A stretch of DNA of 31,665 bases from an archaeon (GTDB taxonomy: Archaea > Nanobdellota > Nanobdellia > Pacearchaeales > GW2011-AR1): NCBI GenBank assembly GCA_037134055.1, contig JBAXMY010000001.1, positions 1 through 31,665 on the forward strand, read 5' to 3'. Position 1 is the first letter of the stretch. Each line of letters opens with the position of its first letter. The position numbers were made by a program, and so were the translations under genes. Shown piece by piece: positions 6,292 to 31,118 of this stretch. Below the pieces are notes generated by a model that saw nothing but the letters and a program-made list of their open reading frames with translations, was not told the DNA's origin and ran no database searches.

Positions 6292-6299
6292 TATTTATA
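6292..6299 (-). promoter_or_regulatory. TATA box for fen, overlapping the upstream stop codon
   Basis: TATAAATA at -29..-22 from ATG 6270. Confidence 0.75.
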
Positions 6300-7266
6300 G
6301 CTTATGAGCCTTTCTTGAACGCCAGAAATAGAAAAATCCTGCAATTAGGCATGCAACAATCAGAACGATGTAGCTTCCCCCGGTATTTGACGCATCAGAC
6401 ACTACAAACCCAGTAAAATTGCCCATAAAAAACAACAAAGAAAAAGAAACAAAGAAGATTGCAGCCGTAGCAGCAATTTTCTCCAAACCCTGTCGTTTAG
6501 TACTTGTTTGCTCCCTTCTTTCAGGCATGCCATAAATGGGATCCGCTCTAAAATATCTATATCTCAGCTCCTTATCAGACATTTCAAATAATTCGGGGAG
6601 TTTTACCTTTGACAAATCCAGTTTTGATGCGTATTTGTAAGGCCTATAATGGATAAGCATCCTATTTCGCACATCCACATCTTCCTCAAAACCCATCGCA
6701 CGTGCAACATCTGAAAGTTGTTCTGCCAATTTTTCATTTCCACCCTTTCTTGCCTCACCCACCGTCTTTAAAAGAACACGATATTTATTTCTGATAAATG
6801 AAGAGCCACGTTCATTCAAAACCTTACCGAGAGAGTCATAAACTCTATCGAATGAGGGCTCACCATTCGGAAATAGTTTCTTTCTTTTTTCTTCAGGTAA
6901 TCCTAGATAAGCTATTTTTCTCCCAACAAATCCCAGAAACTCTTCAGAATGAAGTTCCTTAGTATTGATATAATGCCCAAGATTACCTACTTTCTTTGCT
7001 CTGACAAAATGTGCCAGCTCTTCACCCATTGATTCCGTAACATCTCCAACACCCATTTCACGATTAACTGCAATTCTATTCTTTACCATGTTGTAGTCCA
7101 TTACTTTTTTCTTACTAAACACCAATTTTGGAAACTGATTCTCTGGAATGCCAAATTCCTGGGAAAATATTGCTTTCTGTTCATCATACACCCTTTGGAC
7201 AAATGCCTTGCCTTTATTATTTAACTTAGAAATTGGCTTACTGCCTTTAATAAAATCTTCTTCCAT
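6295..7266 (-). CDS. EExxH zincin-like domain protein with C-terminal two-TM tail
   Basis: E82-E-L-A-H86, S-E-E109-F, H206-x-x-x-Y210; homologous by eye to the C-terminus of 9931..13689. Tail: LEKIAA...GNFTGFVV...FFYFWR. TATTTATA at -29. Confidence 0.85.
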   Translation of the reverse strand: MEEDFIKGSKPISKLNNKGKAFVQRVYDEQKAIFSQEFGIPENQFPKLVFSKKKVMDYNMVKNRIAVNREMGVGDVTESMGEELAHFVRAKKVGNLGHYINTKELHSEEFLGFVGRKIAYLGLPEEKRKKLFPNGEPSFDRVYDSLGKVLNERGSSFIRNKYRVLLKTVGEARKGGNEKLAEQLSDVARAMGFEEDVDVRNRMLIHYRPYKYASKLDLSKVKLPELFEMSDKELRYRYFRADPIYGMPERREQTSTKRQGLEKIAATAAIFFVSFSLLFFMGNFTGFVVSDASNTGGSYIVLIVACLIAGFFYFWRSRKAHKL

Positions 7267-7321
7267 CTAATCAATAGATAAAAGCAATATAAATATGTTT
7301 TCTAAATAGAATGATAATTAT

Positions 7322-7864
7322 TTAATTTCCTACAGAATTATAAAAATCAAAAACACCCTGTTCAACTCTGCCTGAAGGCACTTTCTTAACAACAACATCT
7401 GGAGACAGAACGATTTCACCAGCCAATTTACTCCGCCCATGTAATATTGCAACTGGAGCATTCTTTGTTGAAGCGCGATAATCTTCAAACATTTTAAGAA
7501 GTTCTGCCACATTATTTGCAACATACCCGGATAGAGCACAACTGTCATCAGAACGCACATCCTCCATGTATGGATGTCTTGAATCTTGATAGAACCTAGA
7601 TTTTGGCATGCTCTCTCCCCTTTTCATGGGCATGAATGAAGCATAAAATATCTGATTCTCCCTCGTATAGTCGGAAGGACCTTTGTGTCCTTCATATCTT
7701 ATAACAACATTTCTTTCACCAGCTTCCAAAGCTTGTCTTGCAAAATAGTCCGATATAACATCACTAAAGAAAAATTTTACGCCATGACTTCTGCCAGTCT
7801 GATCTGGTGCTTCCAGTTTACTTGGCTTGCCTTCTCTTGATCTTTTTGATTTGCCCTTGGTCAT
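7322..7864 (-). CDS. Hypothetical soluble protein
   Basis: 180-aa ORF, ATG 1 nt after the upstream stop; no motif recognised. Confidence 0.75.
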   Translation of the reverse strand: MTKGKSKRSREGKPSKLEAPDQTGRSHGVKFFFSDVISDYFARQALEAGERNVVIRYEGHKGPSDYTRENQIFYASFMPMKRGESMPKSRFYQDSRHPYMEDVRSDDSCALSGYVANNVAELLKMFEDYRASTKNAPVAILHGRSKLAGEIVLSPDVVVKKVPSGRVEQGVFDFYNSVGN

Positions 7865-7865
7865 T

Positions 7866-8399
7866 TTATTTTAATCCGTCAAACTGAGCAATGAAATCTC
7901 TCAGTGACTTCCCATTTAATATTTCTTCTAAAAATTCTTGAGGAACTTCATCTTCTTCCAACTCACCAATCATTATTCTTCTAAAAGAAGGATCTCCGAC
8001 CATGGCTCTAACAACAGTTTTAGCTTTATATTTATCAAATTTTCCAGATTCCAGAGCCCTGAGCCTTTCCCCCACATCAACTAGAGAAGCAACCTCAATC
8101 ATCGCACCCATCTCTGAAGTTGATCCTGGAGTTTTACCATTTTCATATATTTTCAAGAATTCCTTTGAAACGAAAGGCTTAACACGATCCTTAAATCCAG
8201 CTAATACTTCAGATTTATCTGGAAGTTCAAATGTTTTTAGAACATCTTCCCTATATCTGTGTCCAACTGGAAGTTTCGAAGCTCGATCTAATCGTTCATA
8301 GATGTAATCCGCATTCTGCATACCCTTCTGAGAACATCGATATACAACTCTAGGGCTCAATACCTTACTATCTACCAAATCTAACAATTCAGTTGTCAT
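7866..8399 (-). CDS. Hypothetical soluble, acidic, helical protein
   Basis: 177-aa ORF, ATG 1 nt after the upstream stop; no motif recognised. Confidence 0.75.
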   Translation of the reverse strand: MTTELLDLVDSKVLSPRVVYRCSQKGMQNADYIYERLDRASKLPVGHRYREDVLKTFELPDKSEVLAGFKDRVKPFVSKEFLKIYENGKTPGSTSEMGAMIEVASLVDVGERLRALESGKFDKYKAKTVVRAMVGDPSFRRIMIGELEEDEVPQEFLEEILNGKSLRDFIAQFDGLK

Positions 8400-8400
8400 T

Positions 8401-8652
8401 CTAGTTATGTCTCCTGTCTTTTCTGTTCAATTCGGCAAGAGTTGCGGAAGCAATTATTGCAGAACCGAGAGTTGCAATTTCATAAAAACTACCCATTCCC
8501 CTATGATTATATACATTGCCAATGGAATACTTTGCACCTTCAACGGGAGAAGAGTCTCTAATCGTATTAACCACCCTAACTGCCAAATCTACCGTTCCGC
8601 AAGCTATGCTAAGGCCTATAACCGTTGCAGCCAATGTTTTTCCTAGTCCCAT
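8401..8652 (-). CDS. Small protein with two hydrophobic helices (paralog of 8778..9038)
   Basis: 83 aa; GTVDLAVRVVN...YNHRG; AGGA 5 nt before the ATG and TTTAAATA further upstream. Confidence 0.75.
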   Translation of the reverse strand: MGLGKTLAATVIGLSIACGTVDLAVRVVNTIRDSSPVEGAKYSIGNVYNHRGMGSFYEIATLGSAIIASATLAELNRKDRRHN

Positions 8653-8777
8653 GTTTTTCCTATAAAAATCTCACTAAATGCCAATATTTAAACCTTTCTA
8701 ATTGTTACCACCACGGAGTAACATGATATATGAATATTATTAAATTGGATAAAAAATATAAAAAATTAAAGAATCGT

Positions 8778-9038
8778 TCAGTATTCCCTCTTTTTGCTTG
8801 TAGCATTGATGGCAATACTTGCACCCGCAACTGCAGTAATCAAACTAAGTCCATTTCCATGAAGACCTTCATGCTTGTATGGGTTCAAAGAAGCCTTTTC
8901 CCTGAATTCCTCAGCCGGCATTTCATATCTATGGGCATGATCCTGAACCATGTTGTAGGTCCTTACTCCCAGGTCGATTGTACCAGTTGCTAGCACATAT
9001 CCTAGAGCGCCTATTGCGATGTTTTGTAGTGTGTTCAT
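8778..9038 (-). CDS. Small protein with two hydrophobic helices (paralog of 8401..8652)
   Basis: The track start at 9080 is TTG. ATG 9038 (MNTLQ) follows AGGAGG at 9058-9053 and aligns with the paralog: GTIDLGVRTYN...YKHEG. Confidence 0.75.
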   Translation of the reverse strand: MNTLQNIAIGALGYVLATGTIDLGVRTYNMVQDHAHRYEMPAEEFREKASLNPYKHEGLHGNGLSLITAVAGASIAINATSKKREY

Positions 9039-9173
9039 TGTCTTTTTTTCATCCTCCTTTCTACTTCTCCCAGGTGACAAAGATAGATGTTAATTTACCC
9101 TAAAATATAAGGGTATCACATGTAAAACCTATACCTCCTCGGCCCTGGAAAGGTCCAATAAACACCAACAAAC

Positions 9174-9181
9174 TATAAAAA
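9174..9181 (+). promoter_or_regulatory. TATA box for the pilin-like / giant-protein operon
   Basis: AAAC-TATAAAAA lies at -29..-22 from ATG 9203, not from 9188. Confidence 0.7.
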
Positions 9182-9202
9182 TCCAAAATGCCCATAGAAT
9201 GT

Positions 9203-9934
9203 ATGAATAAACAAGGTCAGATAGCTATTTTTGTTATTGTTGCCATAGCCGTCGTCATTATAATTATGGGCCTCTTCCTATTTGTGAATCGAGGACCTTC
9301 TACAAATGCGTCCTTGTCTTCAGATACCTCAAAAGTCAAAGAATATGTACAACAATGTATTAATCAAAGACAAATTGACGCCATCAGGATTGTTGGATTG
9401 CAGGGAGGATATATAGTTCTACCTGACAACTATTTAGATACGGGGCTCTACCAAGTTGCCTATGGACAATCTTTGGGCCAAAATACTCTTCCTTCAAAAG
9501 AAAAAATTGCCAGAGAAATATCATCCTACATTGAGTATACGTCCCCTGGATGCATAAATCAAGATAAATTTTTCACAATGGATATATCGCCCGGAGAAGC
9601 AAATGTAAACACAACAATAAGCAACGGAAAAATAACTTCCAGAATGATATTTCCAATATCTGTCACAAAGGAAAACTCCACTTCAATTGTTGGAGCAAAT
9701 TATGAATCCACTGTTAATGTTAGATTCGACGAAATTTACTCTTTCGCACAGGGGATTGTCAAAAAACAGATTGCTGATTCTAAATATATCGATATGACCT
9801 ATCTTTCCAGTTCAAAGTTTAAAGTGGGCATCGTACCATTTGATAATAAAACTACTACTTTTACGATAATTGATGATTCCTCTAGGATTGAAAATATATC
9901 CTATTCCTTCCAATTTGCGAGCGTGATAAAATGA
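9203..9934 (+). CDS. Type IV pilin-like (class III signal peptide) surface protein
   Basis: MNKQG/QIAIFVIVAIAVVIIIMGLFLF followed by a helical then beta-rich body with two Cys; ATGA overlap with the next gene. Confidence 0.7.
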   Translation: MNKQGQIAIFVIVAIAVVIIIMGLFLFVNRGPSTNASLSSDTSKVKEYVQQCINQRQIDAIRIVGLQGGYIVLPDNYLDTGLYQVAYGQSLGQNTLPSKEKIAREISSYIEYTSPGCINQDKFFTMDISPGEANVNTTISNGKITSRMIFPISVTKENSTSIVGANYESTVNVRFDEIYSFAQGIVKKQIADSKYIDMTYLSSSKFKVGIVPFDNKTTTFTIIDDSSRIENISYSFQFASVIK

Positions 9935-12900
9935 TAATGAAAAATAAATTCTTAGTGATATCATCCATTTTCATATTTATAATAATCGTTCAGATTGGCA
10001 TAATGAGCGCAGCAACAACTAGTACAACTCCAGACCCACAAACTACACCTTCAACTCAACAAACTTCTGCAACACAAACAAAAACAACTTCGAATGCAGA
10101 TGACACAATTGTTCCTGAAGGATATACTAAAAAAGGAGACCTCTACGAATGCAGGGGTGCCAAAGACCCGTTAGTATTAAATGGCATCAAGGTTTATGCT
10201 GAAAAGGGGAGCACCATCAAGTATTCAAAGGGAAATTTTGAGATTACTGGAAAAATAAATCAGATAGAATCTGGAAAAACAGTTCTAAAAGATATAACTG
10301 ATGCACAGCTGCAGATAGTATCTAATGAAATCGTCATGGCATCATTCACTGCCGCAGAGAAAGGAGATTACTCTTTTAATTACAACGCACAAGATTTTAA
10401 GTTCTCAGTTGACAAAGGCGGCAAAGTGTATTTCAACCCAAGGGTAAATGAAATTGGAGGAAAAGATACCTCTTTTGATTTCACGAATGCCAATAAAGAA
10501 ACTCAGTCCTTCAAATCTTCTGGAAACTTTGCAGCCAAACTGGAAAATGGAAGAGTGTCCAGAGCAGCCACTGATAGTGGAAGAATTGAATTTACAGACA
10601 GTAGTGGGAAAAAATATTCAGCTCAAGACATATACTTTGATGGAAAACAAGATCTTTCACAAACAAAGGGCTCTGCCATTTCAATAAACGGAAATGAAAT
10701 CCTCTTTAAAGGAATGGCGAGGTTAGATGGCACAGAATCATCTAAGATAAGTTACTCTGGTTTAAGCTCAGATATGTTGACAAAATATGATTCAGAAAAG
10801 AATTCATTTGAATGTGCCCAGGGAAATGCAAAGATTACAAATACGGGAAAGGAATTTCTTCTTGAAAACGGACAGATTAAAACACCAACTGGAGAACCAT
10901 CTAAAGATATCAAAGAAATGCAATTGGCCTATGCAACAAAATCCACTCCAAGCCAGAATCTGGCAGTTTACAATGATATGGATGGCGTAAAGATATATGC
11001 AGAAAAAGACGGACAAACCAAAGCAGGAATACGAGATGGACAATACATTACTTCATATGGTATTTTCGCAACACAAGAGTCCATGGCCAATTATGGTCAA
11101 CAAGTACTGGATAATCAAAGAAAAATTCTAGAAGATAAAATCTCTTCAGTCAGTAACGTGTTAGATACTAATTATGATGCTCTTTCTCCTTCTGAAAGAA
11201 ATGCTTTGAAATATCAATTAGCTGCTCTATATGCAGAAGGAACAACGGATTTTGATGACTATGGAAAAGAGAAGTATAATCAACTTCAATCATTAACAAA
11301 GGAATTGGCAGCCAGTCCTGAATATTCCTCCCTTGCCTTAGGTTTAGAAAGAAATGCGCAATTTAATCTTGGTAAGTACGAGGATGTCTATGAAAACCTG
11401 CAAGAGAGTATGAAAAACGCAAAGGATGTAGCAACCAGAACACAAGTTGATGCAGACTTCGCCAGATATTATACAGATATGCGAAACCCTAATGCAGACC
11501 CTCCAAAGGCATACACTTATTTGTCCGATGCAGTTCGTTCTGATCCAAACAATAAAGTATTAAAAAATGCCCAAAGACAAATGGCGATTGCACTATTCAA
11601 ATATGATGGCGAAATTGCTCAAAATATGCAAGAACAAGCAGCAAGTTCTTATGAAACTGATCAGCTGGTTACTAGCAATGATGAATATGCGGAAATGTGG
11701 AAAGCACTTTCGCCAACAAACTATAAAATTGGTTTGACTTCGGCATACTTAGCTCTTGGAACAGATTATATGCAGAATAAAGAAATAAACTTTGAGAATT
11801 TCATGAAATCTCAAAGCGAAAACAAACGCGGAGATGATTATGTTTCATATCTATTGGGAAAAAAAGAAAATGGAGATTACAAATATTCTTTTGAGGAAAT
11901 TATAAACTTTAAGCCGAGAGACTACATGGAAGTGCTTGGAGTTTCCTCAGACAAGGCTATTGCAATCCAAAGTTATGTGGCTAACACTCTCCAAACAAAT
12001 AATGGACAATTTATTAAAAGTGGTGGAGCTGGTAAGTTTTCAGCCGATTTCGTGAACGATCTTTCATTTTTAGATAGTTGGGGGGTAAAAGCGTTAGGAG
12101 GTGCTACATCTCCTCTCGCCACTACAGCTACACTTGGCCCAGTAGCCTTAGCTCCTGGAAGTTTTGGGATATCTGCAGCTACCGGATGGAGAGCAATTAC
12201 GGGTGCAAGCGAGATTACTGGTGGAACAACAGTTTCAGAAGCATTGATATCTGGTTTAGCCAGCAGATCAGCTTTGGCAAATGGTGCGATTACTTCAATA
12301 TCTGAAGCTAGCGCTGCGATGAGTAACGCGGGCAAGAGCTTATTGATAACTAAAGCTAGTTTTGGCAGTACGGCCGCAGACCTAACAGTTGGAGCTGCAG
12401 GTCTTGCAGGAGATGTTGGGGTAGGTACCGCTGCAGGTCTTGCTATTCAAGCTACTGTGCCAGGTCCGGCTGGAGAAATGTTGTCTATGCTTGTTGTTCC
12501 GGGACAGATGAAGGGTCTTTCTAAGGAAGGTGCATCCTTGCTTAGTTCTGAACTCAAACAAGAAGCTCGAGCAGGTCTAAAAGATATAATTCCAGGCACA
12601 AAACTCGGCGAGTTTAGTCTAGTTTTCGAAGATGCCTCTGCTGCTGAAAAAATGTTAAAAAATACTAAAATATTCGGCGCTCATACATCAGATCCAATGA
12701 GAGTTTATCAAACTGGTGATATGGAACTTCTTTTGACCGAAATTGCTGGTCAAGATAATGCGCTCTCAGCAAAATTCTATTCTAGGAATCTAGCCAACCT
12801 AGATTCTGTCTCGGGTTTAACAAGTGCAGAAGCGAGAGCTGAAGCATTTACAGCTAGTAGAATGCTTGATGGTCCAAACGGAGAATTGAATCGTGTACTT

Positions 12901-13689
12901 TTCGCACAAGTTACTGATGATGCTGCAGCAACTGCTGAGAGACTTTGGGAACCAATATTATCTAGAGGAGCCGCGCAAGCAGACGCAGTTTCAGTCAAAC
13001 AATTAGGAGTGGAAGGTGAAAAAAGAGTACAAGTGCTATACGAGTTAATGAAGTTACGATTTGCAGAGAAAACTGGTATGCCTGTTGAATCAATGCCTAA
13101 TTTACAGTTTGGTGGGCCAACCGCATATAGTCGAATGAGTCATAGAATGACGATTGATTCAAATCAACCAATGTCAGAGATTGTGGAGAGCTTAGCAGAA
13201 GAGCTTGGACATTCCATACGTTGGGTTAAAAATCCAATCCCATTTAAACCTAGAACTGGAGAAGTTTCTGATGAGTTTGTTGGCTGGATGAGTAGAGAGC
13301 TTGCTTATGAAGATCCATATTTGAGAAAGTTTTTCGTTCGTGAACCTTCGATATCTTACGAATTTAATGGAAAATCGTTTAAAGAACTCATTAGTGGATA
13401 TTCAGAAGAGATAAGATATTTGAAGGGGAAAAAAGTAGAATATACAGAACGTCTATCTGAACCGGACATTTCTCTAGCTGACAAAGTAGATTATGGAAAA
13501 CGATTAAAAGAAACAGAAAAAGACTTAATAGATGAAGTTAGAGGTTTTAACCACGTTATAGGTTATTGGTCTAGTGGTAGTTTGCGTATAACAGACTTAA
13601 GTGCTCAAGATATACGATTATTATACGAAACATCCGGACAAAACTTAGTTTCTAAGTACATTCAACCATATATTAAATATGCAAAATAA
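9931..13689 (+). CDS. 1252-aa exported modular protein with C-terminal EExxH zincin-like domain (polymorphic-toxin-like)
   Basis: Signal peptide, Thr/Gln/Pro linker, beta-rich region, helical TPR-like region, Gly/Ala hydrophobic segment (aa ~717-858), then E1090-E-L-G-H1094, S-D-E1115-F and H1208-x-x-x-Y1212. Confidence 0.85.
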   Translation: MIMKNKFLVISSIFIFIIIVQIGIMSAATTSTTPDPQTTPSTQQTSATQTKTTSNADDTIVPEGYTKKGDLYECRGAKDPLVLNGIKVYAEKGSTIKYSKGNFEITGKINQIESGKTVLKDITDAQLQIVSNEIVMASFTAAEKGDYSFNYNAQDFKFSVDKGGKVYFNPRVNEIGGKDTSFDFTNANKETQSFKSSGNFAAKLENGRVSRAATDSGRIEFTDSSGKKYSAQDIYFDGKQDLSQTKGSAISINGNEILFKGMARLDGTESSKISYSGLSSDMLTKYDSEKNSFECAQGNAKITNTGKEFLLENGQIKTPTGEPSKDIKEMQLAYATKSTPSQNLAVYNDMDGVKIYAEKDGQTKAGIRDGQYITSYGIFATQESMANYGQQVLDNQRKILEDKISSVSNVLDTNYDALSPSERNALKYQLAALYAEGTTDFDDYGKEKYNQLQSLTKELAASPEYSSLALGLERNAQFNLGKYEDVYENLQESMKNAKDVATRTQVDADFARYYTDMRNPNADPPKAYTYLSDAVRSDPNNKVLKNAQRQMAIALFKYDGEIAQNMQEQAASSYETDQLVTSNDEYAEMWKALSPTNYKIGLTSAYLALGTDYMQNKEINFENFMKSQSENKRGDDYVSYLLGKKENGDYKYSFEEIINFKPRDYMEVLGVSSDKAIAIQSYVANTLQTNNGQFIKSGGAGKFSADFVNDLSFLDSWGVKALGGATSPLATTATLGPVALAPGSFGISAATGWRAITGASEITGGTTVSEALISGLASRSALANGAITSISEASAAMSNAGKSLLITKASFGSTAADLTVGAAGLAGDVGVGTAAGLAIQATVPGPAGEMLSMLVVPGQMKGLSKEGASLLSSELKQEARAGLKDIIPGTKLGEFSLVFEDASAAEKMLKNTKIFGAHTSDPMRVYQTGDMELLLTEIAGQDNALSAKFYSRNLANLDSVSGLTSAEARAEAFTASRMLDGPNGELNRVLFAQVTDDAAATAERLWEPILSRGAAQADAVSVKQLGVEGEKRVQVLYELMKLRFAEKTGMPVESMPNLQFGGPTAYSRMSHRMTIDSNQPMSEIVESLAEELGHSIRWVKNPIPFKPRTGEVSDEFVGWMSRELAYEDPYLRKFFVREPSISYEFNGKSFKELISGYSEEIRYLKGKKVEYTERLSEPDISLADKVDYGKRLKETEKDLIDEVRGFNHVIGYWSSGSLRITDLSAQDIRLLYETSGQNLVSKYIQPYIKYAK

Positions 13690-13714
13690 ACAATAATAAG
13701 CAAAAATAACAACC

Positions 13715-13722
13715 TATAAAAA
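13715..13722 (+). promoter_or_regulatory. TATA box for polB
   Basis: AACC-TATAAAAA at -29..-22. Confidence 0.75.
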
Positions 13723-13743
13723 TCTCCCCAACCATCTAGAAGA

Positions 13744-16140
13744 ATGACGAGCATTAAAGGATTCATTGTGCAGGCAGACTATCAGATAATTGACGACAAA
13801 ACCTATGTACAACTATTTGGAAGACTGGAAAATGGCCAATCATTTGCCACAGTCAACAAAGTCAAGCCATACATGTTCATAGCTGAGAAAGAACTAAAGA
13901 AAGCCAACAAACTTCTCAGCAAATATGAAACAGAAAAAACCTCGTTGAAAACATTCGCAGGGGAAAAAGTCATAAAAATAAGTCATGACCTTCAAGCAGA
14001 GCTAGGAAAACTAGCATCCGCACTTCACAAACTTGATATTCCAACCTATGAATCGGATATCAAGCCACATACGCGATTCATAATTGACCAGGACCTTTTA
14101 GGAAGCCTAGAAATTCAAGGCGAATACGACCCTTCTGAGAAAGTCGACCGCGTCTATAGGGAAGCTAAAATCAAGCAAAGTGATTACAAACCAAATTTGA
14201 AAACTCTATCCCTGGATATAGAAACTGACGGGCAGACAAAGAAACTTCTCTGCATCGGCTTGTATGCACCAGGATATAAGCAAACATTTATGATTACCAA
14301 CCAAAAACTGCGGGAAACCGTTTCATGCAAGAATGAAACCGACTGCCTTCTCAAGTTTAAAGAAGCAATAAACAAATTTGATCCAGACATTATCACCGGA
14401 TGGAATGTCATTGACTTTGATATGAAGTACCTACAAGATTTATTCAAAGAAAATAGAATTCCGTTTGACATTGGAAGAACGAATGCAGAAGCCAAGACAA
14501 GAATTGAAGATAACTTCTTCCGTTCTTCAAGTATGGACATTCCTGGAAGAATGGTCCTTGATGGATTGAATATGATAAAAGACCCATTCATCAAAGAAGC
14601 CCCATCAATAAAAAATGCAGAATTCGAATCCTATAAATTAGAAGATGTCGCCCAGGAAATTCTAGGAAAAGGAAAGATTCTCAAAGGAAAGGGAAGACAC
14701 GATGAAATCTCTCAGCTCTATAAAAAAGACCAGCAAAAACTTGTTGACTACAACATGAAAGACTGTGAACTAGCCTATGAAATTCTTGAAAAAACAAAGA
14801 TGATTGACCTGGCAATAGAGCGTTCGCAATTGGTGGGCCTAGAATTAGACAGGCTAACTGCTTCCATTGCCGCATTCGACTCCCTGTATATAAGAGAAGC
14901 AAGGAAACACGGCTTAGTCTCTCCAAGCACAGTATACGGACAAAAAGATGAACGTCTCAAGGGAGGATATGTCTTTTCTAGCAAGGCAGGAATATTCCGT
15001 AATGTCCTAGTCCTAGACTTCAAATCCCTATACCCTTCAATTATCTGCACATTTAACATAGATCCGGCAGCTCACATTAAAAATAAAAAAGAACTGAAGA
15101 AAGAAAAAGATCCCGTAGAATCTCCAAATAAGGAATATTTCAAGAACCAGGAAGGCATTTTGCCAGGAATAATTGGCAAACTTCATTTTGCAAGAGAAAA
15201 AGCAAAGCAAGAAAAACGAGAACTCTCCAGCTACGCAATAAAAATAATCATGAACTCATTCTGGGGTGTTCTTGCTTCACCAAACTGCAGATATTTCGAT
15301 TTCAACATGGCCAGCTCCATTACGGCATTCGCAAGATGGGCAATCCAAGATACGGCGAAGGAAATTGAAAAATTAGGGTATAAAGTAATTTACAGTGATA
15401 CGGATTCCGTATTCATAGAAACTGGCCTTGACAAAGAAAAGGCAGGCAAACTTGGATATGAAATACAGAATACAATCAATAAGTTCTACCATGACTACGT
15501 GCAGAAGCATTTCAAGAGAAAATCTTTCCTGGAATTGCAATTTGAAAAACACTTCCTCTCTTTAATGATTCCAGGTGTGAGAATGAAGCCAGCAAAGAAG
15601 AAAGCAAGCAAAGAAAAGGAAGAGCCGGAGAAAGAAGTAGAAAAGGTAGCTGCAAAGAAGCGTTACGCCGGACTTCTTTGGAAAAATGGAAAAGAAGAAC
15701 TGCAAATTACTGGCCTGGAAGCAATAAGAGGAGATTGGACAGAAGCCGCGCAGGAATTCCAGAAGGAATTATTGATGAAAACATTCCACAATGAACCTGT
15801 TGAGAAGTTTATTGCGCAATATGTAAAAGACATTCGTGCAGGCAAGATGGATAAACTTCTCATTTACAGAAAATCAATTAGAAAAAATCTGGCAGAATAC
15901 ACGAAGATGACTCCCCCACACGTAAAAGCAGCCCGTCTACTTGATGTATTAGATTCAAATGTAATAGAATACTATATCACAACATCAGGTCCAGAACCAA
16001 TTCAAAAACACACTCACCCTCTGGATTATGACCATTACATAACTAAGCAAATCGCCCCAATTGCCAATCAAGTTCTCTCATTGCTAGGAAAATCCTTTGA
16101 GGATTTATCACAGCCAACTAAACAGGCTAAATTGTTCTAA
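13744..16140 (+). CDS. polB: Family B DNA polymerase, bacterial Pol II-like, with proofreading exonuclease
   Basis: ExoI DIET, ExoII WNVIDFD, ExoIII YNMKD; pol motifs DFKSLYPS, KIIMNSFWG, YSDTDS, KKRYAG; Pol II-like GLEAIRGDWT, PPHVKAAR and GPEP...LDYDHY; C-terminal QAKLF. Confidence 0.97.
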   Translation: MTSIKGFIVQADYQIIDDKTYVQLFGRLENGQSFATVNKVKPYMFIAEKELKKANKLLSKYETEKTSLKTFAGEKVIKISHDLQAELGKLASALHKLDIPTYESDIKPHTRFIIDQDLLGSLEIQGEYDPSEKVDRVYREAKIKQSDYKPNLKTLSLDIETDGQTKKLLCIGLYAPGYKQTFMITNQKLRETVSCKNETDCLLKFKEAINKFDPDIITGWNVIDFDMKYLQDLFKENRIPFDIGRTNAEAKTRIEDNFFRSSSMDIPGRMVLDGLNMIKDPFIKEAPSIKNAEFESYKLEDVAQEILGKGKILKGKGRHDEISQLYKKDQQKLVDYNMKDCELAYEILEKTKMIDLAIERSQLVGLELDRLTASIAAFDSLYIREARKHGLVSPSTVYGQKDERLKGGYVFSSKAGIFRNVLVLDFKSLYPSIICTFNIDPAAHIKNKKELKKEKDPVESPNKEYFKNQEGILPGIIGKLHFAREKAKQEKRELSSYAIKIIMNSFWGVLASPNCRYFDFNMASSITAFARWAIQDTAKEIEKLGYKVIYSDTDSVFIETGLDKEKAGKLGYEIQNTINKFYHDYVQKHFKRKSFLELQFEKHFLSLMIPGVRMKPAKKKASKEKEEPEKEVEKVAAKKRYAGLLWKNGKEELQITGLEAIRGDWTEAAQEFQKELLMKTFHNEPVEKFIAQYVKDIRAGKMDKLLIYRKSIRKNLAEYTKMTPPHVKAARLLDVLDSNVIEYYITTSGPEPIQKHTHPLDYDHYITKQIAPIANQVLSLLGKSFEDLSQPTKQAKLF

Positions 16141-16484
16141 TTCAGAGCTAAAGAGACCTTAATGGCCATATCTACTTTTTTCATTAATTCTGAATTCAAG
16201 AACGAAATCTTCTTTACTACTCTTGATTTATCTATAGTCCTTATTTGATTTGATAAAATAGTAGAATCGTTATTTAAGCCAGATTCTTCACTTTTAACGA
16301 ATACATTTGTTGGATATCCCTTAGTATATATCTTAGAAGTTAATGGAATGACAATTAACAACGGACTAAATCTATTAAAAACATCGTTCTGAACAACTAC
16401 TGCTGGCCTTACTTTGCCCTGTTCACTTCCCCTAACTGGTTCAAAATTAACGAGAAGAATGTCTCCCCTTTTTATCTCCATCAT
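16137..16484 (-). CDS. mazF: MazF/PemK-family endoribonuclease toxin
   Basis: IKRGDILLVNFEPVRGSEQGKVRPAVVVQND...IPLTS...QIRTIDKSR. The start could be 16484 or 16481. Confidence 0.93.
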   Translation of the reverse strand: MMEIKRGDILLVNFEPVRGSEQGKVRPAVVVQNDVFNRFSPLLIVIPLTSKIYTKGYPTNVFVKSEESGLNNDSTILSNQIRTIDKSRVVKKISFLNSELMKKVDMAIKVSLALN

Positions 16485-16728
16485 CTTTCCATTCCCAATC
16501 TAATTCGGCGTCAGTTTGCTCCCACTCGCGATTAATCTCTAACATATCTTCAGCCATAACCTTACATCCTTCAATCATCAGATCTTCCTGTGCCCGCCTT
16601 TTACTTTCTATGGTTTGAATCATTCTGACTATCACATCTTCGTAACTTTCATTGCTTTTCTCCCTCATTCTATCCAAATCATTCTTTACATTGGCTCTAA
16701 GTTGAATGGTGCTTATTTCGTTTTTCAT
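16447..16728 (-). CDS. Antitoxin (RHH-like N-terminus, acidic C-terminus) of the MazF pair
   Basis: Immediately upstream of and overlapping mazF; STIQL...KNDLDRM...SYEDVI; acidic MAEDMLEINREWE segment. Confidence 0.8.
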   Translation of the reverse strand: MKNEISTIQLRANVKNDLDRMREKSNESYEDVIVRMIQTIESKRRAQEDLMIEGCKVMAEDMLEINREWEQTDAELDWEWKDDGDKKGRHSSR

Positions 16729-16772
16729 TATTCTATAGATAAACTATAGTTTAAAGATGTTTCTGTTCCGTT

Positions 16773-17705: not shown

Positions 17706-17706
17706 T

Positions 17707-19008
17707 TTAGAGATTACACTTTATAGTCAGAAGTGATTCAAACTTATCCTTTGACAAGTCATATTTTCTAATTGACTCTTCATGATCTTCCCTAAATGCA
17801 CGAATAGATTCTCGAGTAATCAATCCTGCCTCATTGGCCCCCTCTCTTCTAATACATAATTGGGCTGCAGCATGAGCATAATCTAAAATTTCTAGAGAAT
17901 TATAGCCTCCTCTTGCTTCAAGTAGAGTCATTACACCCGTAAATGTGTCTCCAGCCCCATTTTGGTCTACCATTTCTTCTCCTTCAGGTTTAGAACTGCT
18001 AAAACTTGAAACTTTTTGCCAATATAATATTCCATCAGAATCCAGCATGTATACTCCTTCCTTACCCCTAGTAACGTACACCCTTCTCTTTGAACTTCCG
18101 CCTTCAGAACCTTCTAGTATTTTAAGCATCCCCCTATAGAAATCTCTTGACGTCAACTGACTTGCACTTCCTCTATTGGTAAACATTTCCGATTTAGTAA
18201 ATTCAAAGAATTCTTCCTGATTTGAAACATATATCTCTGCTGAATTCACTAGTCTGCATACATCAAGTCCGTTCTTCCTCTCTGCCAACATAGAATTGGT
18301 CACAGCAGCAACAAGATGTGGTTGATTCCCAGATTTTGCAGATTCATCATATCTATCTAATATCCCTTCAAGATAACTCTTATCCTTTACACTATTTACA
18401 ACAAGAAGATCATTGCGTTCAAATCTCAAAAATCTGTCCAACTTTAATCTTAAATCTCCAATTTCTGATTCTTCAAATGGCTTTTCCCTTGAAGTATATG
18501 CAACCCTATCTCCATTGGAACGGAGGCTTATGTTGATGGCATCTCCATCAGTTTTTCTAATCCAATTGTACGAACGATTTGACCTATCAAGTTCTCCATC
18601 AAGAGTATCCCTCACAAATCTATTTAGTTCTGAAACGAGCAATTCTAAACTAATAACTGAACCAAAACTCTGCTCAAGTGTTGCAGCCGCATAATAGTTA
18701 TTTGTGGGGCCTCCTCCAGGTCGAGGAATGCAATTTAGGGATTTGGTCTCGGTTACACCTTCAATCTTATCACTCAGTGTCCAGATAGAATCGTCGGTGA
18801 TATTTTTCTCAAACCGGTTCTCCCTTCCAGCCTTTAAAGTAAGATACATAACTGTACCTCCGACTAGTTTGAGAATTATATCCTCTTTGGGGACAAAAAC
18901 TCCTTTCTTCTTATTTTCATCACTTAAATCAGCCATTCTAGCTAACTCTGATTTATCCAATTTGGCAGTCCAATCTACTACATTTCCTCCAACATAACAT
19001 ATTCTCAT
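17707..19008 (-). CDS. Divergent PfkB/ribokinase-family sugar kinase
   Basis: N-terminal YVGGNVVD, PGGGPTN, NQEEF, VYVTRGKEG and DQNGAGDTF anion-hole motif. Confidence 0.8.
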   Translation of the reverse strand: MRICYVGGNVVDWTAKLDKSELARMADLSDENKKKGVFVPKEDIILKLVGGTVMYLTLKAGRENRFEKNITDDSIWTLSDKIEGVTETKSLNCIPRPGGGPTNNYYAAATLEQSFGSVISLELLVSELNRFVRDTLDGELDRSNRSYNWIRKTDGDAINISLRSNGDRVAYTSREKPFEESEIGDLRLKLDRFLRFERNDLLVVNSVKDKSYLEGILDRYDESAKSGNQPHLVAAVTNSMLAERKNGLDVCRLVNSAEIYVSNQEEFFEFTKSEMFTNRGSASQLTSRDFYRGMLKILEGSEGGSSKRRVYVTRGKEGVYMLDSDGILYWQKVSSFSSSKPEGEEMVDQNGAGDTFTGVMTLLEARGGYNSLEILDYAHAAAQLCIRREGANEAGLITRESIRAFREDHEESIRKYDLSKDKFESLLTIKCNL

Positions 19009-19018
19009 AGTCTATCCC

Positions 19019-19714
19019 TCAACCAGATTCCCACGCTGATTGATTCGCACCAAGTAACTCTCTTCTAGCCCTTACCAACTGGGGATGTGTTTGAATTAAT
19101 TTATAATAGTTTTTAACTAATCTTGGACAATCCTCCATAAACTGGAGATGATTGTCATACCTAATTGCATAGGGGCATGGCTCATCAAATTTCAAATGTT
19201 GTCCAGCAAGAACAACTCTTGTTTGATAGTCCGGTCCGAGGGTTTTAAAGAATTTGTCATACAAATCCCAAACGGGCATCTCCGGAGCCGCCAATTCTTG
19301 TTCCATCCAACTTTCCCCAGAATCGTATTTCTCGATGCTAATTGAGCTGCAATTGGCAACCTGAACTAACAATATCTTCCTGCCTTGCCTTTCTGCTGCA
19401 TGAGCTAATTTTTTTGTAATCTCTAGAGTGCTTGCTTCTAATCCAGAACCCTGGACTAAATACATATCGTGTTCCACATGCTCCAAAAACTTCTGTCTAT
19501 CCTGATCACTTCCTTTTAATTGCATTCCGTCATGCCTCAAAGTGCATGTATCATTGTAAAACTCTTTCACATCGAAAGTAAAATTAGACTCCTGGAATGC
19601 ATCGAGAAGCTGTTGATTTTGTGACAGACATGTAGGCACATCATCTCCATCCACCGTATTCAAATTATTCAAGAAAATTCCGAAGGAAGGAGTTATGATT
19701 CTTTCTTTAGCCAT
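19019..19714 (-). CDS. Hypothetical protein
   Basis: 231-aa ATG ORF, co-oriented with and 10 nt from the kinase gene. Confidence 0.75.
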   Translation of the reverse strand: MAKERIITPSFGIFLNNLNTVDGDDVPTCLSQNQQLLDAFQESNFTFDVKEFYNDTCTLRHDGMQLKGSDQDRQKFLEHVEHDMYLVQGSGLEASTLEITKKLAHAAERQGRKILLVQVANCSSISIEKYDSGESWMEQELAAPEMPVWDLYDKFFKTLGPDYQTRVVLAGQHLKFDEPCPYAIRYDNHLQFMEDCPRLVKNYYKLIQTHPQLVRARRELLGANQSAWESG

Positions 19715-20129
19715 ACACTATAGAATTCCTGGACAGACTTAACAATTATCAATATATTTCCATACCTCGCTATCCTAGTCTATTCCAACTATGCTCGGCT
19801 ATTCGAAATATGGAAGCATATTTCGTATATCTTGTCTTCGTCTAATCCTACAATGTAAACGAACTTTCGCCCACTAATTAATAAAAGATGAGGTGAAAGT
19901 TAGGTCAACCTGCTGATTTTCGAACTAAGAGAACAATTCTGGAAGAATTGAGATAGATACCTCTTATGAGAGATTAACCGACTTCCACAGAGAAGCGCGT
20001 GTGTGAACTAAGAGCCACGCGAGGTATAATTTACTTGAAGAGCTGTTTCGAGCGTAATCGCATTATTTATTAGAATTTATGGCTGGCGAACAATTAGGGT
20101 GGGGGACGGCGCACGCTGTTTTTGGTTAG
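19715..20129. other. Structured non-coding flank (left)
   Basis: No ORF of meaningful length. Perfect hairpins at 19804-19825 (9 bp) and 19934-19950 (7 bp), CGCGTG/CACGCG at 19996-20021, and direct repeat GAACTAAGAG at 19922 and 20005. Confidence 0.6.
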
Positions 20130-21004
20130 TTATTTCCTTTTGAAATAGATAAAACTAGCTATCAAACCAATTGTAAATAAAATTCCGCCTGTCAAATTAC
20201 TCGATGTTTGATTTAAACTGGCAATTACATTACCAGTTATATTTGAAGATAAAAAAAATAAACCTGCGATGAGTCCTGTAACGGCAATTATAGAAAGAAA
20301 GTGAGATGCTAAATTTGCATTTTTCATTCCCACCTTGCGCTTTCTTTCATCTATCGCCTCTTTCATTCTTCTAACTTGTAACAAACCACTGTCTATTCTT
20401 TTTTCTAGTTTTTCATTCTCTTTTCTTCCATCTGCAGTTTGTGGTAAAAGATTAATCGTGTTTATAGCATGTTCATAGCAGTATAGCGCTTTGTTAAGGC
20501 GTCCTTGATCCATGTAACGTTCTCCAGCATAACAATAGAAGCCTGGTGTAGATTGGCTTTTTTTCATTTCGAGTCTTTGGGCTTCGACGAGGTCGTTATC
20601 CGCACCTTTTGTTTTTTCGAGTTTTTCAAGAATTCTTCTAAAGAAACCTTTTTGTATCCCAACTAGCTCATCCGAACTACTGACATTATACGTAGGATTA
20701 GCACTGTCTAAATCATGGTAGCTATGCCTTCTATGTTCTGCTCTTCGAAGCTCTCTTCCAAGTTTTTGTCTGTCATAAAGGTTCAATTCCTGCGGGTCAA
20801 TTGATTTTAAATGGTTCACGGCATTATCTGTAAACTCTTGTGAAAAATATGGCATATCTTTGGCCTCTTTAATTAATTTCCTAACTCGAGGAGATAACCT
20901 TTTTTCTTTTTTATTCATCTCTTTTATAGCAATCATCGATTTAAATTCTTTTGCAAGCGCGCCGTCGGGTGGGGGTTGGTAAATACTGAGCCAGCCATAA
21001 ATTC
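20073..21004. repeat. Inverted repeats flanking the 20130 gene
   Basis: GAATTTATGGCTGGC (20073-20087) and its exact reverse complement (20990-21004); GACGGCGC (20105-20112) and GCGCCGTC (20959-20966); GGGTGGGGG present as a direct repeat at 20097 and 20967. Confidence 0.85.
20130..20918 (-). CDS. Helical (TPR-like) protein with C-terminal two-TM NITGNVI tail
   Basis: AATTTAAA at -29 favours ATG 20918 (MNKKEK). YAGERYMDQGRLNKALYCYEHAI is TPR-like. The tail resembles that of 6295..7266. Confidence 0.85.
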   Translation of the reverse strand: MNKKEKRLSPRVRKLIKEAKDMPYFSQEFTDNAVNHLKSIDPQELNLYDRQKLGRELRRAEHRRHSYHDLDSANPTYNVSSSDELVGIQKGFFRRILEKLEKTKGADNDLVEAQRLEMKKSQSTPGFYCYAGERYMDQGRLNKALYCYEHAINTINLLPQTADGRKENEKLEKRIDSGLLQVRRMKEAIDERKRKVGMKNANLASHFLSIIAVTGLIAGLFFLSSNITGNVIASLNQTSSNLTGGILFTIGLIASFIYFKRK

Positions 21005-31044: not shown

Positions 31045-31118
31045 TGATCGCGCCAGGATTTGAACCTGGGACCCCTGCCTTATCAGAGCAGTGCGCTACC
31101 GGGCTGCGCCACGCGATC
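31045..31118 (-). tRNA. tRNA-Ile(GAU), intron-less, CCA not encoded
   Basis: GATCGCG/CGCGATC acceptor stem, GCGC D-stem, anticodon arm CTGCT-CTGATAA-GGCAG, T-arm CCAGG-TTCAAAT-CCTGG, discriminator A. Confidence 0.97.

What the first reader, a model, noticed from the sequence alone, without database searches (positions are those of the whole stretch)
6295..20312. Shared C-terminal two-helix 'N-x-T-G-x-V' tail on unrelated proteins: a candidate sorting signal
6295-6486 encodes LEKIAATAAIFFVSFSLLFFMGNFTGFVV...LIAGFFYFWR. 20130-20312 encodes LASHFLSIIAVTGLIAGLFFLSSNITGNVI...LIASFIYFKRK. The layout is the same (TM1-FF-N.TG.V-loop-TM2-YF-basic), but the N-terminal domains differ (zincin-like versus TPR-like) and neither has a signal peptide. 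A constant tail with variable cargo suggests an export, anchoring or processing tag. I recall similar tails in Pacearchaeota proteins but cannot verify that here.
Basis: partly seen in the sequence, partly recalled or inferred. Interest (0 to 1): 0.7.

Follow-up and report, generated by a model that had tools for sequence, protein, structure and literature searches.

The report
Conserved two-helix membrane tail, Pacearchaeota
Two unrelated proteins of a tiny freshwater archaeon (Pacearchaeota/Nanoarchaeota) end in the same ~62-residue module, two membrane helices joined by a near-invariant N-x-T-G-N-V-I loop; the module is real, undescribed and sits on dozens of unrelated signal-peptide-less proteins, so it most likely pins cytoplasmic proteins to the membrane and does not export them.

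Summary
Both tails lie on the minus strand: ORF 6295..7266 (323 aa) and ORF 20130..20936 (268 aa).

- **In this genome:** six clear copies and two degenerate ones.
- **In the wider databases:** a profile of the tails finds 1,864 protein clusters (621 at E<=1e-10) among 1.84 billion. In the best 150 hits the match ends at or near the protein's C-terminus, and the TG is essentially invariant (G 152/152, T 148/152).
- **Annotation:** no Pfam or NCBIfam model covers it, and I found no paper on it.
- **Distribution:** it is nearly confined to one family of Nanoarchaeota. NCBI labels some hits Candidatus Pacearchaeota. It occurs in 68 of 150 other genera of that family and in 1 of 287 genomes elsewhere in the phylum.
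- **Cargo:** the N-terminal domains fall into about 62 groups with no detectable mutual similarity. None of the 152 has a signal peptide or another hydrophobic segment.
- **Topology:** the flanks are basic and the 18-19-residue loop is uncharged, with about two N-glycosylation sequons.

Best reading (about 0.6): an uncleaved, post-translationally inserted hairpin anchor that tethers cytoplasmic domains and exposes a short, probably glycosylated loop. The features that define sortase-type sorting signals were not met: no signal peptide and no co-occurring sortase or archaeosortase. Cleavage and the loop's partner remain untested. The scan's index shows no look-alike on other DNA.

The parts
6295..7266 (-). 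Gene for P0001 (323 aa): zincin-like orphan cargo plus C-terminal hairpin tail
   Evidence: ORF list and translation. Tail scored 92.8 bits by the tail profile.
6508..7266 (-). P0001 cargo, residues 1-253. Hydrophilic, no signal peptide. Paralogue of the last ~240 residues of ORF 9931..13689. Carries EELAH where zincins have HExxH.
   Evidence: BLASTP 2e-10. 27% identity over the whole cargo. No other homologue found in 5.8 billion proteins. ESM Atlas structural neighbours are zincin peptidases at TM 0.54-0.56. Foldseek rows are weak, E>0.7.
6421..6477 (-). P0001 TM1 (IAATAAIFFVSFSLLFFMG)
   Evidence: Translation check; hydrophobicity.
6370..6420 (-). P0001 loop NFTGFVVSDASNTGGSY, holding one N-x-T sequon (NFT) and the TGxVV core
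   Evidence: The matching columns are conserved in 152 tails.
6298..6369 (-). P0001 TM2 (IVLIVACLIAGFFYFW) and basic end RSRKAHKL
   Evidence: Charge statistics.
20130..20936 (-). Gene for P0002 (268 aa; the database copy starts at M7, 262 aa): TPR-like helical cargo plus a near-consensus hairpin tail
   Evidence: Tail scored 100 bits, the best hit of the profile. AlphaFold2 model pLDDT 78.5.
20304..20936 (-). P0002 cargo, residues 1-211. All-helical, basic, with one TPR-like repeat at residues 133-158.
   Evidence: Pfam TPR_2 at 19.6 bits, below the 27-bit cut-off. Relatives with the same cargo reach TPR at E 1.3e-9. The two best AlphaFold DB cluster hits are named TPR proteins.
20244..20303 (-). 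P0002 TM1 (HFLSIIAVTGLIAGLFFLSS), modelled as a continuation of the last cargo helix
   Evidence: The model has a single helix across residues 168-235.
20190..20243 (-). P0002 loop NITGNVIASLNQTSSNLT: three N-x-T sequons, no charged residue
   Evidence: Loop statistics.
20133..20189 (-). P0002 TM2 (GGILFTIGLIASFIYF) and KRK end
   Evidence: The TM2 glycines are near-invariant (G 150/152 and 149/152).
12955..13686 (+). C-terminal ~240 residues of the 1,252-aa ORF 9931..13689: paralogue of the P0001 cargo, with an EELGH motif
   Evidence: This protein has only an N-terminal hydrophobic segment.

Best explanation
The tail is a lineage-specific, modular C-terminal membrane anchor. It consists of a short basic, often x-L-E-x-K, lead-in; TM1 (..AI.G..GGLFFLSS); an 18-19-residue uncharged loop (N-[IL]-T-G-N-V-I-G-x-L-N-Q-T-S-S-N-W-I-G-G); TM2 (VLF.IGL.GAF.YF); and a K/R cluster that ends the protein.

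Proposed mechanism:
1. The cargo is made in the cytoplasm and stays there. This follows from the lack of any signal sequence and from the charge distribution.
2. The two helices emerge only as translation ends. The hairpin is therefore inserted post-translationally, with only the short polar loop crossing the membrane. The likely insertase is the YidC/Oxa1-type DUF106 protein, or SecYEG. This step is inferred; the genome does encode a DUF106/EMC3-type protein.
3. Outside the cell, the loop's conserved N-x-T/S sequons are probably glycosylated by AglB, which the genome encodes. Glycosylation would lock the topology and give all these proteins the same small external face. This step is inferred.
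4. The result is a set of diverse, mostly helical or TPR-like, basic cytoplasmic domains held at the inner face of the membrane.

The loop and the glycine-rich helix faces are much better conserved than anchoring alone needs. They therefore probably contact a common partner or each other. That partner is unknown.
For: Shown by tool results:
- The module is a specific family: 1,864 hits, 621 at E<=1e-10, C-terminal in nearly all of the best 150, with near-invariant N-x-T-G-N.
- In this genome the profile score drops from 88 bits to 15 bits after the six members, so ordinary TM hairpins are not picked up. This profile was built from those six.
- 0 of 152 cargos has a 19-residue window with Kyte-Doolittle hydropathy above 1.6. 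Cargos are K/E/R-rich, with net charge +4.5 per 100 residues and 0.3% Cys.
- Positive-inside pattern: 3.8 K/R in the 12 residues before TM1, 3.3 K/R after TM2, and only 0.11 K/R and 0.15 D/E in the loop. Loop length is 18-19 in 118 of 152.
- Sequons: every loop has at least one. The mean is 1.93 against 0.98 in shuffled loops, and 7.7 per 100 residues against 0.46 in cargos.
- Cargos form 62 BLASTP groups, and hhalign between the largest eight gives probabilities below 17%. Tail identity is the same within and between cargo groups, 48.7% against 47.5%.
- The AlphaFold2 model of P0002 is a helix running into TM1, a short loop and TM2.
- The genome encodes AglB/STT3, archaeal signal peptidase I and a DUF106/EMC3-type insertase.
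- In this genome the core TG[NFY][VAI][VI] occurs 21 times. Twelve follow a hydrophobic segment directly, against a 5.2% background (binomial 7e-11). Three more precede a membrane-anchoring TM of surface proteins. The motif therefore marks the outer membrane face in general.
- One protein (G000 C75:3010-3693) has TM1-NSTGNVV, a ~110-residue domain, then GVTGNVV-TM2-basic. That is the same hairpin with an ectodomain inserted in the loop.
Against: - No experiment or proteomic data exist. Topology, glycosylation and the absence of cleavage are all inferred.
- Conservation of the loop is stronger than anchoring requires, so the main function may lie in the loop and remain unknown.
- P0001's cargo is paralogous to the C-terminal domain of a 1,252-aa protein that has only an N-terminal hydrophobic segment. 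If that protein is secreted, the shared domain would lie outside the cell there, which fits poorly with a cytoplasmic location in P0001.
- Positions V/A-x-G/A/S after TGN fit the -3/-1 rule of signal peptidase I, so processing is possible.
- No clear Get3 homologue was found, and the genome is only 68.6% complete.
Confidence: 0.6

Rival explanations
1. Processing tag cut by signal peptidase I. TM1 would act as an internal signal sequence and the conserved loop as its c-region, with cleavage after V-I-G or after T-G. The hairpin would insert like M13 procoat and then be split into cargo-TM1 (a true tail-anchored protein) and a small glycosylated TM2 peptide.
For: Column counts fit the -3/-1 rule: V/A/T in 146 of 152 and G/A/S in 144 of 152 two positions later. 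The G of TG is invariant. Archaeal signal peptidase I is encoded in the genome. The same TGNV[VI] core follows N-terminal signal-like segments of exported proteins here.
Against: The would-be c-region is about 10 residues, which is long. Ordinary secreted proteins of this genome use A-x-A sites close to the hydrophobic core (sequences). In the N-terminal copies the residue after [VA][VI] is S, V, D, K or D, which mostly breaks the -1 rule. TM2 and its glycines are as conserved as TM1, which suggests the two helices work together.
Confidence: 0.1
2. True sorting signal of the sortase, archaeosortase or rhombosortase kind. An unknown enzyme would recognise N-x-T-G-N-V-I or S-S-N-W-I-G-G before TM2, cut it, and attach or release the cargo (export, vesicle loading or transfer to a host).
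For: The second half of the tail (motif, TM2, K/R end) has the three-part look of such signals. It scores 12-15.4 bits against TIGR01167 LPXTG_anchor, whose cut-off is 15.9. A few type-I surface proteins of this genome carry [FY]-L-T-G-F-V before their last TM. A rhomboid protease is present.
Against: No cargo has a signal peptide (0 of 152), so the cargo never reaches the side of the membrane where such enzymes act. No sortase or archaeosortase is found in this genome. The archaeosortase family passes its cut-off in only 3 of 81 genomes of the family, and only one of those three carries the tail. Usual copy number is 1-2 per genome. No conserved neighbour gene exists. The half-tail profile does not retrieve the surface-protein anchors significantly.
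Confidence: 0.05
3. The hairpin itself is the active part. It would be an oligomerising membrane unit (pore, holin-like or glycine-zipper assembly, or a membrane-shaping element), and the variable cytoplasmic domains would regulate or localise it.
For: The glycines in both helices are near-invariant (IxGxxGG in TM1; GGxLFxxGLxGAF in TM2). Stand-alone versions of 61-81 aa exist. The topology matches two-TM holins. The nearest Pfam families are membrane-hairpin repeats such as DUF308, all below their cut-offs.
Against: Holin models score only E 0.03-0.09. No copy was found in viral contigs, and there is no lysis-gene context. Some short forms may be truncated gene calls on small contigs.
Confidence: 0.12
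4. Chance resemblance of two ordinary transmembrane hairpins.
For: Hydrophobic segments align easily, and the pairwise BLASTP E-value is only 4e-5.
Against: 621 representatives at E<=1e-10, with an invariant TG, fixed loop length and C-terminal position.
Confidence: 0.01

Closest known systems
C-terminal protein-sorting domains (LPXTG/sortase, PEP-CTERM/exosortase, PGF-CTERM/archaeosortase A, GlyGly-CTERM/rhombosortase, MYXO-CTERM/myxosortase; overviews in bioRxiv 10.1101/2023.06.07.544157, PMC11980579, PMC6219818)
   Same: A short, lineage-restricted C-terminal module shared by otherwise unrelated proteins. A signature motif is followed by a hydrophobic helix and a basic cluster at the very end.
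   Different: Those signals sit on proteins with an N-terminal signal peptide, have one helix, co-occur with a dedicated enzyme and usually come in many copies per genome. Here there are two helices, no signal peptide on any of 152 cargos, no co-occurring sortase or archaeosortase, and usually 1-2 copies.
Tail-anchored membrane proteins of eukaryotes and archaea (Get3/TRC40 clients; PMC6593721)
   Same: A cytosolic N-terminal domain without a signal sequence, hydrophobic anchor at the extreme C-terminus, and insertion that must be largely post-translational.
   Different: Tail-anchored proteins are defined by a single C-terminal helix with a few residues beyond it. Here a hairpin returns the C-terminus to the cytoplasm and displays a conserved 18-residue loop. 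No clear Get3 was found in this genome.
Small helical hairpins inserted by YidC/Oxa1-type insertases (M13 procoat, F-ATPase subunit c); named from established knowledge, not from a search here
   Same: Two helices with a short translocated loop and both ends in the cytoplasm. The analogy suggests the insertion route, and the genome encodes a DUF106/EMC3-type insertase.
   Different: No sequence relation. Those are whole small proteins, not a module fused to many cargos.
Pfam DUF308 (PF03729, HdeD-type membrane-hairpin repeat); NCBI names one family member 'DUF308 domain-containing protein'
   Same: A glycine-containing transmembrane hairpin unit.
   Different: The best score is 16.2 bits against a 25-bit cut-off, and it covers TM2 only. 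DUF308 lacks the N-x-T-G-N-V-I loop and is a tandem repeat in polytopic proteins.
Membrane-tethered regulators of DPANN archaea with a two-helix hairpin and an outward sensor loop
   Same: A cytoplasmic N-terminal domain held at the membrane by a C-terminal hairpin whose short external loop is the conserved feature.
   Different: Those have a DNA-binding cargo and a Cys/His/Met loop. Here the cargos are diverse, and the loop is N/S/T/G-rich with glycosylation sequons.

Membership tests
Sortase/exosortase/archaeosortase-type C-terminal sorting signals | Cargo carries an N-terminal signal peptide, so that cargo and motif reach the outer face of the membrane | tested here: not met
   0 of 152 cargos has a 19-residue window with hydropathy above 1.6. 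The N-termini of P0001 and P0002 are hydrophilic.
Sortase/exosortase/archaeosortase-type C-terminal sorting signals | Three-part C-terminus: signature motif, one transmembrane helix, basic cluster | tested here: inconclusive
   The second half (NxTGNVIG...SSNWIGG, TM2, KRK) fits, but a conserved TM1 precedes it. TIGR01167 LPXTG_anchor scores 12-15.4 bits against a 15.9-bit cut-off.
Sortase/exosortase/archaeosortase-type C-terminal sorting signals | Co-occurrence with a dedicated processing enzyme | tested here: not met
   No PF04203 sortase and no PF09721 exosortase/archaeosortase in this genome, which is 68.6% complete. PF09721 passes its cut-off in 3 of 81 family genomes, only one of which carries the tail. 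The genome's only rhomboid is a generic family match.
Sortase/exosortase/archaeosortase-type C-terminal sorting signals | Proteolytic removal of the tail | not testable with these tools
   Needs proteomics or expression.
Tail-anchored (TA) proteins | Cytosolic N-terminal domain without a signal sequence | tested here: met
Tail-anchored (TA) proteins | A single transmembrane helix within about 30-40 residues of the C-terminus, with the C-terminus translocated | tested here: not met
   Two helices, and both flanks are basic: 3.8 and 3.3 K/R.
Pfam DUF308 (PF03729) | Score at or above the gathering cut-off | tested here: not met
   16.2 bits against 25. No Pfam or NCBIfam model reaches its cut-off on any tail.
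Two-TM (class II) holins | Small stand-alone protein in a phage or lysis context that matches a holin family | tested here: not met
   Phage_holin_3_6 at E 0.03-0.09 only. No hit in viral contigs. Cargos reach about 360 aa.
Zincin metallopeptidases (cargo of P0001) | HExxH metal-binding and catalytic motif | tested here: not met
   EELAH in P0001 and EELGH in its paralogue. No Pfam hit at E<=1.
Zincin metallopeptidases (cargo of P0001) | Zincin fold: helix, three-stranded sheet, active-site helix, then a helix carrying the third ligand | tested here: inconclusive
   The AlphaFold2 model has these elements in that order, but pLDDT is 58.8. ESM Atlas neighbours are M1, M48 and Zn_peptidase at TM 0.47-0.56. 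The top Foldseek rows are minigluzincins, IrrE and ArdC, at E>0.7.
TPR repeat proteins (cargo of P0002) | Pfam TPR model at or above its cut-off | tested here: inconclusive
   P0002 scores 19.6 bits against 27. Six of the 150 scanned tail proteins reach TPR_2 at E<=0.001 (best 1.3e-9), and the two best AlphaFold DB cluster hits are named TPR proteins.

The most novel reading that the evidence does not exclude
The tail is a genuine address-and-processing tag of a new kind for proteins without signal peptides. The near-invariant glycosylatable loop would be read at the outer membrane face by AglB, signal peptidase or an unknown partner. That reading would concentrate, clip or hand over a changing set of cytoplasmic effector-like domains at one site, for example the contact zone between these presumed episymbionts and their hosts, or budding vesicles.
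Probability: 0.12. Interest if true: 0.85.

Novelty: new variant of a known kind. Interest (0 to 1): 0.6.

Why it matters
Pacearchaeota and their relatives are abundant, uncultured, tiny-genome archaea, and most of their proteins have no assigned function.

- **Annotation.** This gives a recognisable, testable rule for more than 1,800 protein clusters: an N-x-T-G-N-V-I hairpin at the C-terminus marks a protein that is probably membrane-tethered with its body in the cytoplasm. It defines a domain that the family libraries searched here lack.
- **Biology.** It shows that one lineage has repeatedly fused a single strongly constrained anchor to dozens of unrelated domains. Such strong constraint suggests a common partner at the cell surface.
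- **Experiments.** The conserved sequons offer a simple handle for studying N-glycosylation and membrane insertion in a group where neither has been examined. The module could also serve as a portable anchor for displaying or tethering proteins in archaeal hosts.

Tried and rejected
- **Self-association.** Complex prediction with four copies of the tail gave no verdict (score 0.00, fold confidence under 50). This is no evidence either way.
- **Expression.** No RNA holder was listed for the P0002 locus. The DNA holders are freshwater and lake metagenomes. No reads were laid.
- **The search for related loci.** The 74-row alignment had no stretch conserved enough to search with. The 12-row version returned only 5 genome loci and none in viral contigs.
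- **Cargo homologues.** Searches for homologues of the P0001 cargo and of the giant protein's C-terminal domain returned only the queries themselves.
- **Fold searches.** Foldseek against the PDB gave nothing significant for either model.
- **Literature.** Searches for the motif strings, for DPANN sorting signals and for Nanoarchaeota tail-anchored proteins found nothing relevant.
- **Half-tail profiles.** These did not significantly retrieve the C-terminal anchors of surface proteins. The link between the tail and those anchors therefore rests on the short motif only.
- **Motif in relatives.** In 106 kb of relatives' loci the motif occurred only in tails, but those loci had been selected for tails.
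- **Readings rejected.** Holin, DUF308 member, archaeosortase substrate and viral gene, for the reasons given in the membership rows.

Full report
**1. What is in the window**

ORF 6295..7266 encodes P0001 (323 aa) and ORF 20130..20936 encodes P0002 (268 aa). The quoted peptides are exact.

Both proteins end in the same layout: a basic lead-in, a ~19-residue hydrophobic helix, an uncharged loop that begins N-x-T-G-x-V-[VI], a second hydrophobic helix ending in aromatic residues, and a basic end. The coordinates of every part were checked by translation.

BLASTP aligns only the tails (E=4e-5) and nothing else in the two proteins. Neither protein has a hydrophobic N-terminus. No Pfam or NCBIfam model reaches its cut-off on the tails.

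**2. More than chance, and more than two**

The window lies on contig 1 of a 998-kb, 151-contig assembly with 38.6% GC and 68.6% completeness.

A motif scan and a profile built from the tails find four further full copies on other contigs: C7:13403-14320, C10:5623-6042, C13:3822-4340 and C44:1896-2579. Two degenerate copies, C31:1775-2413 and C61:4938-5342, keep TGNVI or TGNIV. In the genome's six-frame ORF set the profile score falls from 88 bits to 15 bits after the six members. That profile was built from those six, so this drop is not independent evidence.

The independent test is the search of 1.84 billion representative proteins. It returned 1,864 hits at E<=1e-3 and 621 at E<=1e-10. The best 150 are 61 to 422 residues long and carry the match at or near the C-terminus. 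I examined 152 tails: 146 of those hits plus this genome's six. In 138 of them the tail ends exactly at the last residue.

The consensus is K-x-L-E-x-K..AI.G..GGLFFLSS, N-[IL]-T-G-N-V-I-G-x-L-N-Q-T-S-S-N-W-I-G-G, VLF.IGL.GAF.YF, K/R-K/R-K/R. Column counts out of 152 are N 145, T 148, G 152, N 141, and 150 and 149 for two TM2 glycines.

**3. Who has it**

Named database members are labelled Nanoarchaeota archaeon or Candidatus Pacearchaeota archaeon, and almost all are 'hypothetical protein'.

| Sample | Genomes with the tail (E<=1e-5) |
|---|---|
| Phylum-wide, the window's own GTDB family | 6 of 13 |
| Phylum-wide, all other families | 1 of 287 |
| Own family, other genera | 68 of 150 |
| Own family (this genome included), genomes at least 90% complete | 17 of 31 |

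Copy number is usually 1-2 and reaches 6. Many of these genomes are incomplete, so these are 'found' counts, not proofs of absence. No copy was found in IMG/VR viral contigs. DNA holders of the locus are freshwater and lake metagenomes.

**4. The cargo**

- Among the 152 tails examined, cargos range from 0 to 359 residues, with a median of 149.
- None contains a 19-residue window with hydropathy above 1.6, so there is no signal peptide and no further membrane segment.
- Cargos are K/E/R-rich, have a net charge of +4.5 per 100 residues, and contain almost no cysteine.
- The 143 cargos of at least 40 residues fall into 62 single-linkage BLASTP groups.
- Profile-profile comparison of the eight largest groups gives probabilities of 17% or less.
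- Pfam recognises only TPR-type repeats in a few, plus SNAP and MIT once or twice.
- Tail identity is the same within cargo groups (48.7%) and between them (47.5%).

P0002 belongs to the largest group. Its AlphaFold2 model (pLDDT 78.5) is all-helical with a TPR/MIT-like hairpin. Its last helix runs straight into TM1.

P0001's cargo has no relative in the 5.8-billion-protein index except inside this same window. It aligns at 27% identity over its whole length with the last ~240 residues of the 1,252-aa ORF 9931..13689. Both carry E-E-x-x-H where zincins have H-E-x-x-H, followed about 22 residues later by a conserved S-x-E-F. ESM Atlas structural neighbours are zincin peptidases at TM 0.47-0.56. 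The low-confidence AlphaFold2 model has the zincin order of elements, and its non-significant top Foldseek rows are minigluzincins, IrrE and ArdC. 'Zincin-like' is therefore a fair lead for the fold, but the family-defining motif is not met.

**5. Topology and what it implies**

- The 12 residues before TM1 carry 3.8 K/R on average, and the residues after TM2 carry 3.3.
- The loop carries 0.11 K/R and 0.15 D/E, and is 18-19 residues long in 118 of 152 tails.

By the positive-inside rule, both flanks, and hence the cargo, are cytoplasmic and the loop is outside. Moving a 150-360-residue basic domain across the membrane without a signal sequence is not expected.

Every loop has at least one N-x-S/T sequon. 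The mean is 1.93, against 0.98 after shuffling the same loops, and the density is 7.7 per 100 residues against 0.46 in cargos. The genome encodes an AglB/STT3 oligosaccharyltransferase, an archaeal signal peptidase I and a DUF106/EMC3-type (YidC/Oxa1-like) insertase. No clear Get3 was found.

The whole module occupies the last ~60 residues, so it leaves the ribosome only at termination. Insertion must therefore be largely post-translational, with only a short polar loop to translocate. This is the situation of YidC-type hairpin substrates. That step is inference from established knowledge, not a result.

**6. The motif outside the tails**

In this genome TG[NFY][VAI][VI] occurs 21 times in all ORFs of 50 residues or more. 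Twelve occurrences directly follow a hydrophobic segment, against a positional background of 5.2% (binomial 7e-11). These are seven tails, four N-terminal signal-like segments of exported proteins, and one doubtful ORF.

Three more lie 10-25 residues before a membrane-anchoring TM of surface proteins (the last TM in two of them). Two of those surface proteins, C10:683-2248 and C148:701-1339, share [SY]-F-L-T-G-F-V-x-G-x-G...K-x-P-I-S, a TM, then R-F-R.

One protein, C75:3010-3693, reads TM1-NSTGNVV, a ~110-residue domain, then GVTGNVV-TM2-basic. That is the hairpin with an ectodomain inserted in the loop.

The core motif therefore marks the outer membrane face in this organism in general, and the tail looks like the minimal form with no ectodomain. 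Half-tail profiles did not retrieve those surface-protein anchors significantly. This link therefore rests on the motif, not on demonstrated homology, and I could not test it in relatives without bias.

**7. Is it a sorting signal?**

The defining features of sortase-type signals were tested.

| Feature | Result |
|---|---|
| Signal peptide on the cargo | Not met |
| Dedicated enzyme | Not met: no sortase or archaeosortase here; archaeosortase family over its cut-off in 3 of 81 family genomes, only one of which has the tail |
| Single helix | Not met: two helices |
| Conserved neighbouring genes | None around the eight copies here or in two long foreign contigs |

Two things keep a processing reading alive. 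The second half of the tail looks three-part and scores just under the LPXTG_anchor cut-off. The positions after TGN fit the -3/-1 rule of signal peptidase I. Against that, the would-be c-region is long, the N-terminal copies of the motif mostly break the -1 rule, and TM2 is as conserved as TM1.

**8. Verdict**

The feature is real, specific and, as far as Pfam, NCBIfam and the searchable literature go, undescribed.

Most likely (about 0.6) it is an uncleaved hairpin anchor that tethers diverse cytoplasmic domains to the membrane and displays a short, probably N-glycosylated loop. The loop and the glycine faces are more constrained than anchoring needs, which suggests an unknown common partner or self-association. 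A self-association prediction gave no verdict.

Rivals:
- cleavage by signal peptidase I (0.10);
- the hairpin as the active oligomeric unit (0.12);
- a sortase-like system with an unknown enzyme (0.05);
- chance (0.01).

One tension remains. P0001's cargo is paralogous to the end of a giant protein that has only an N-terminal hydrophobic segment. That protein may place the domain outside the cell.

I rate this a new variant of a known kind (modular C-terminal membrane anchors), interest 0.6. The scan's index holds no look-alike on other DNA.

Noticed in passing
window 19715-20129 and 20937-21292, flanking the gene 20130..20936: The P0002 gene sits between two unusually long non-coding flanks (about 415 and 355 nt). 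These carry a perfect 15-nt inverted repeat, 20073-20087 / 20990-21004 (GAATTTATGGCTGGC / GCCAGCCATAAATTC), about 0.002 expected by chance in 2 kb. It could be a terminal repeat of a small cassette or a regulatory feature. Another first-reader note (e1-5287765) lists further nested short repeats here.
   Followed up: partly
window 9931..13689 (+), residues ~1009-1252, and window 6508-7266 (-): The cargo of P0001 is a paralogue (27% identity over ~240 residues) of the C-terminal domain of the neighbouring 1,252-aa protein. Both have EExxH instead of the zincin HExxH, then a conserved S-x-E-F about 22 residues later. Neither has any other homologue in the 5.8-billion-protein index. This may be a zincin-fold family that is inactive or uses different metal ligands.
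   Followed up: partly
window 9931..13689 (+), residues ~715-860: The giant protein has a ~150-residue G/A/S/T-rich low-complexity stretch with glycine-zipper-like runs (e.g. VGAAGLAGDVGVGTAAGLA) between its N-terminal part and the zincin-like end. Only the N-terminus passes a hydropathy threshold, so whether this stretch crosses the membrane is open.
   Followed up: partly
window 9188..9934 (+): The 248-aa protein just upstream of the giant gene overlaps its start. It begins MPIECMNKQGQIAIFVIVAIAVVIIIMGLF, which looks like an archaeal type IV pilin-like (class III) signal: a basic residue, G, Q, then a hydrophobic stretch. Read from the sequence only.
   Followed up: no
window 8401..8652 (-) and 8778..9080 (-): Two adjacent small proteins (83 and 100 aa) look like paralogues. 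They share G-T-[VI]-D-L-[AG]-V-R-x-x-N-x-[IV]-[RQ]-D after a hydrophobic start, and an ...A-x-S-x-x-[RK]-[KR] end. They lie between the P0001 gene cluster and the pilin-like gene.
   Followed up: no
G000 C10:683-2248 (-), C148:701-1339 (-), C75:3010-3693 (+), C17:8464-9411 (+), C25:1204-4203 (+), C37:4042-4485 (+): Exported or surface proteins of the same genome carry the TG[NFY][VA][VI] core right after N-terminal signal-like helices or 10-25 residues before their last helix. Two share a longer C-terminal signature, [SY]FLTGFVxGxG...KxPIS, then a TM, then RFR. This may be a separate C-terminal anchor motif worth its own study.
   Followed up: partly
window 16137..16484 (-) and 16447..16728 (-): An overlapping small gene pair. 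The downstream product begins MMEIKRGDILLVNFEPVRGSEQGKVRPAVVV, which reads like a PemK/MazF-type toxin, with a small upstream antitoxin-like partner. A MazE/PemK pair also lies near a tail gene on a foreign contig (L024). Not tested with a family search.
   Followed up: no
window 31045..31118 (-): tRNA-Ile (anticodon GAT), the only Rfam or ARAGORN hit in the window.
   Followed up: yes
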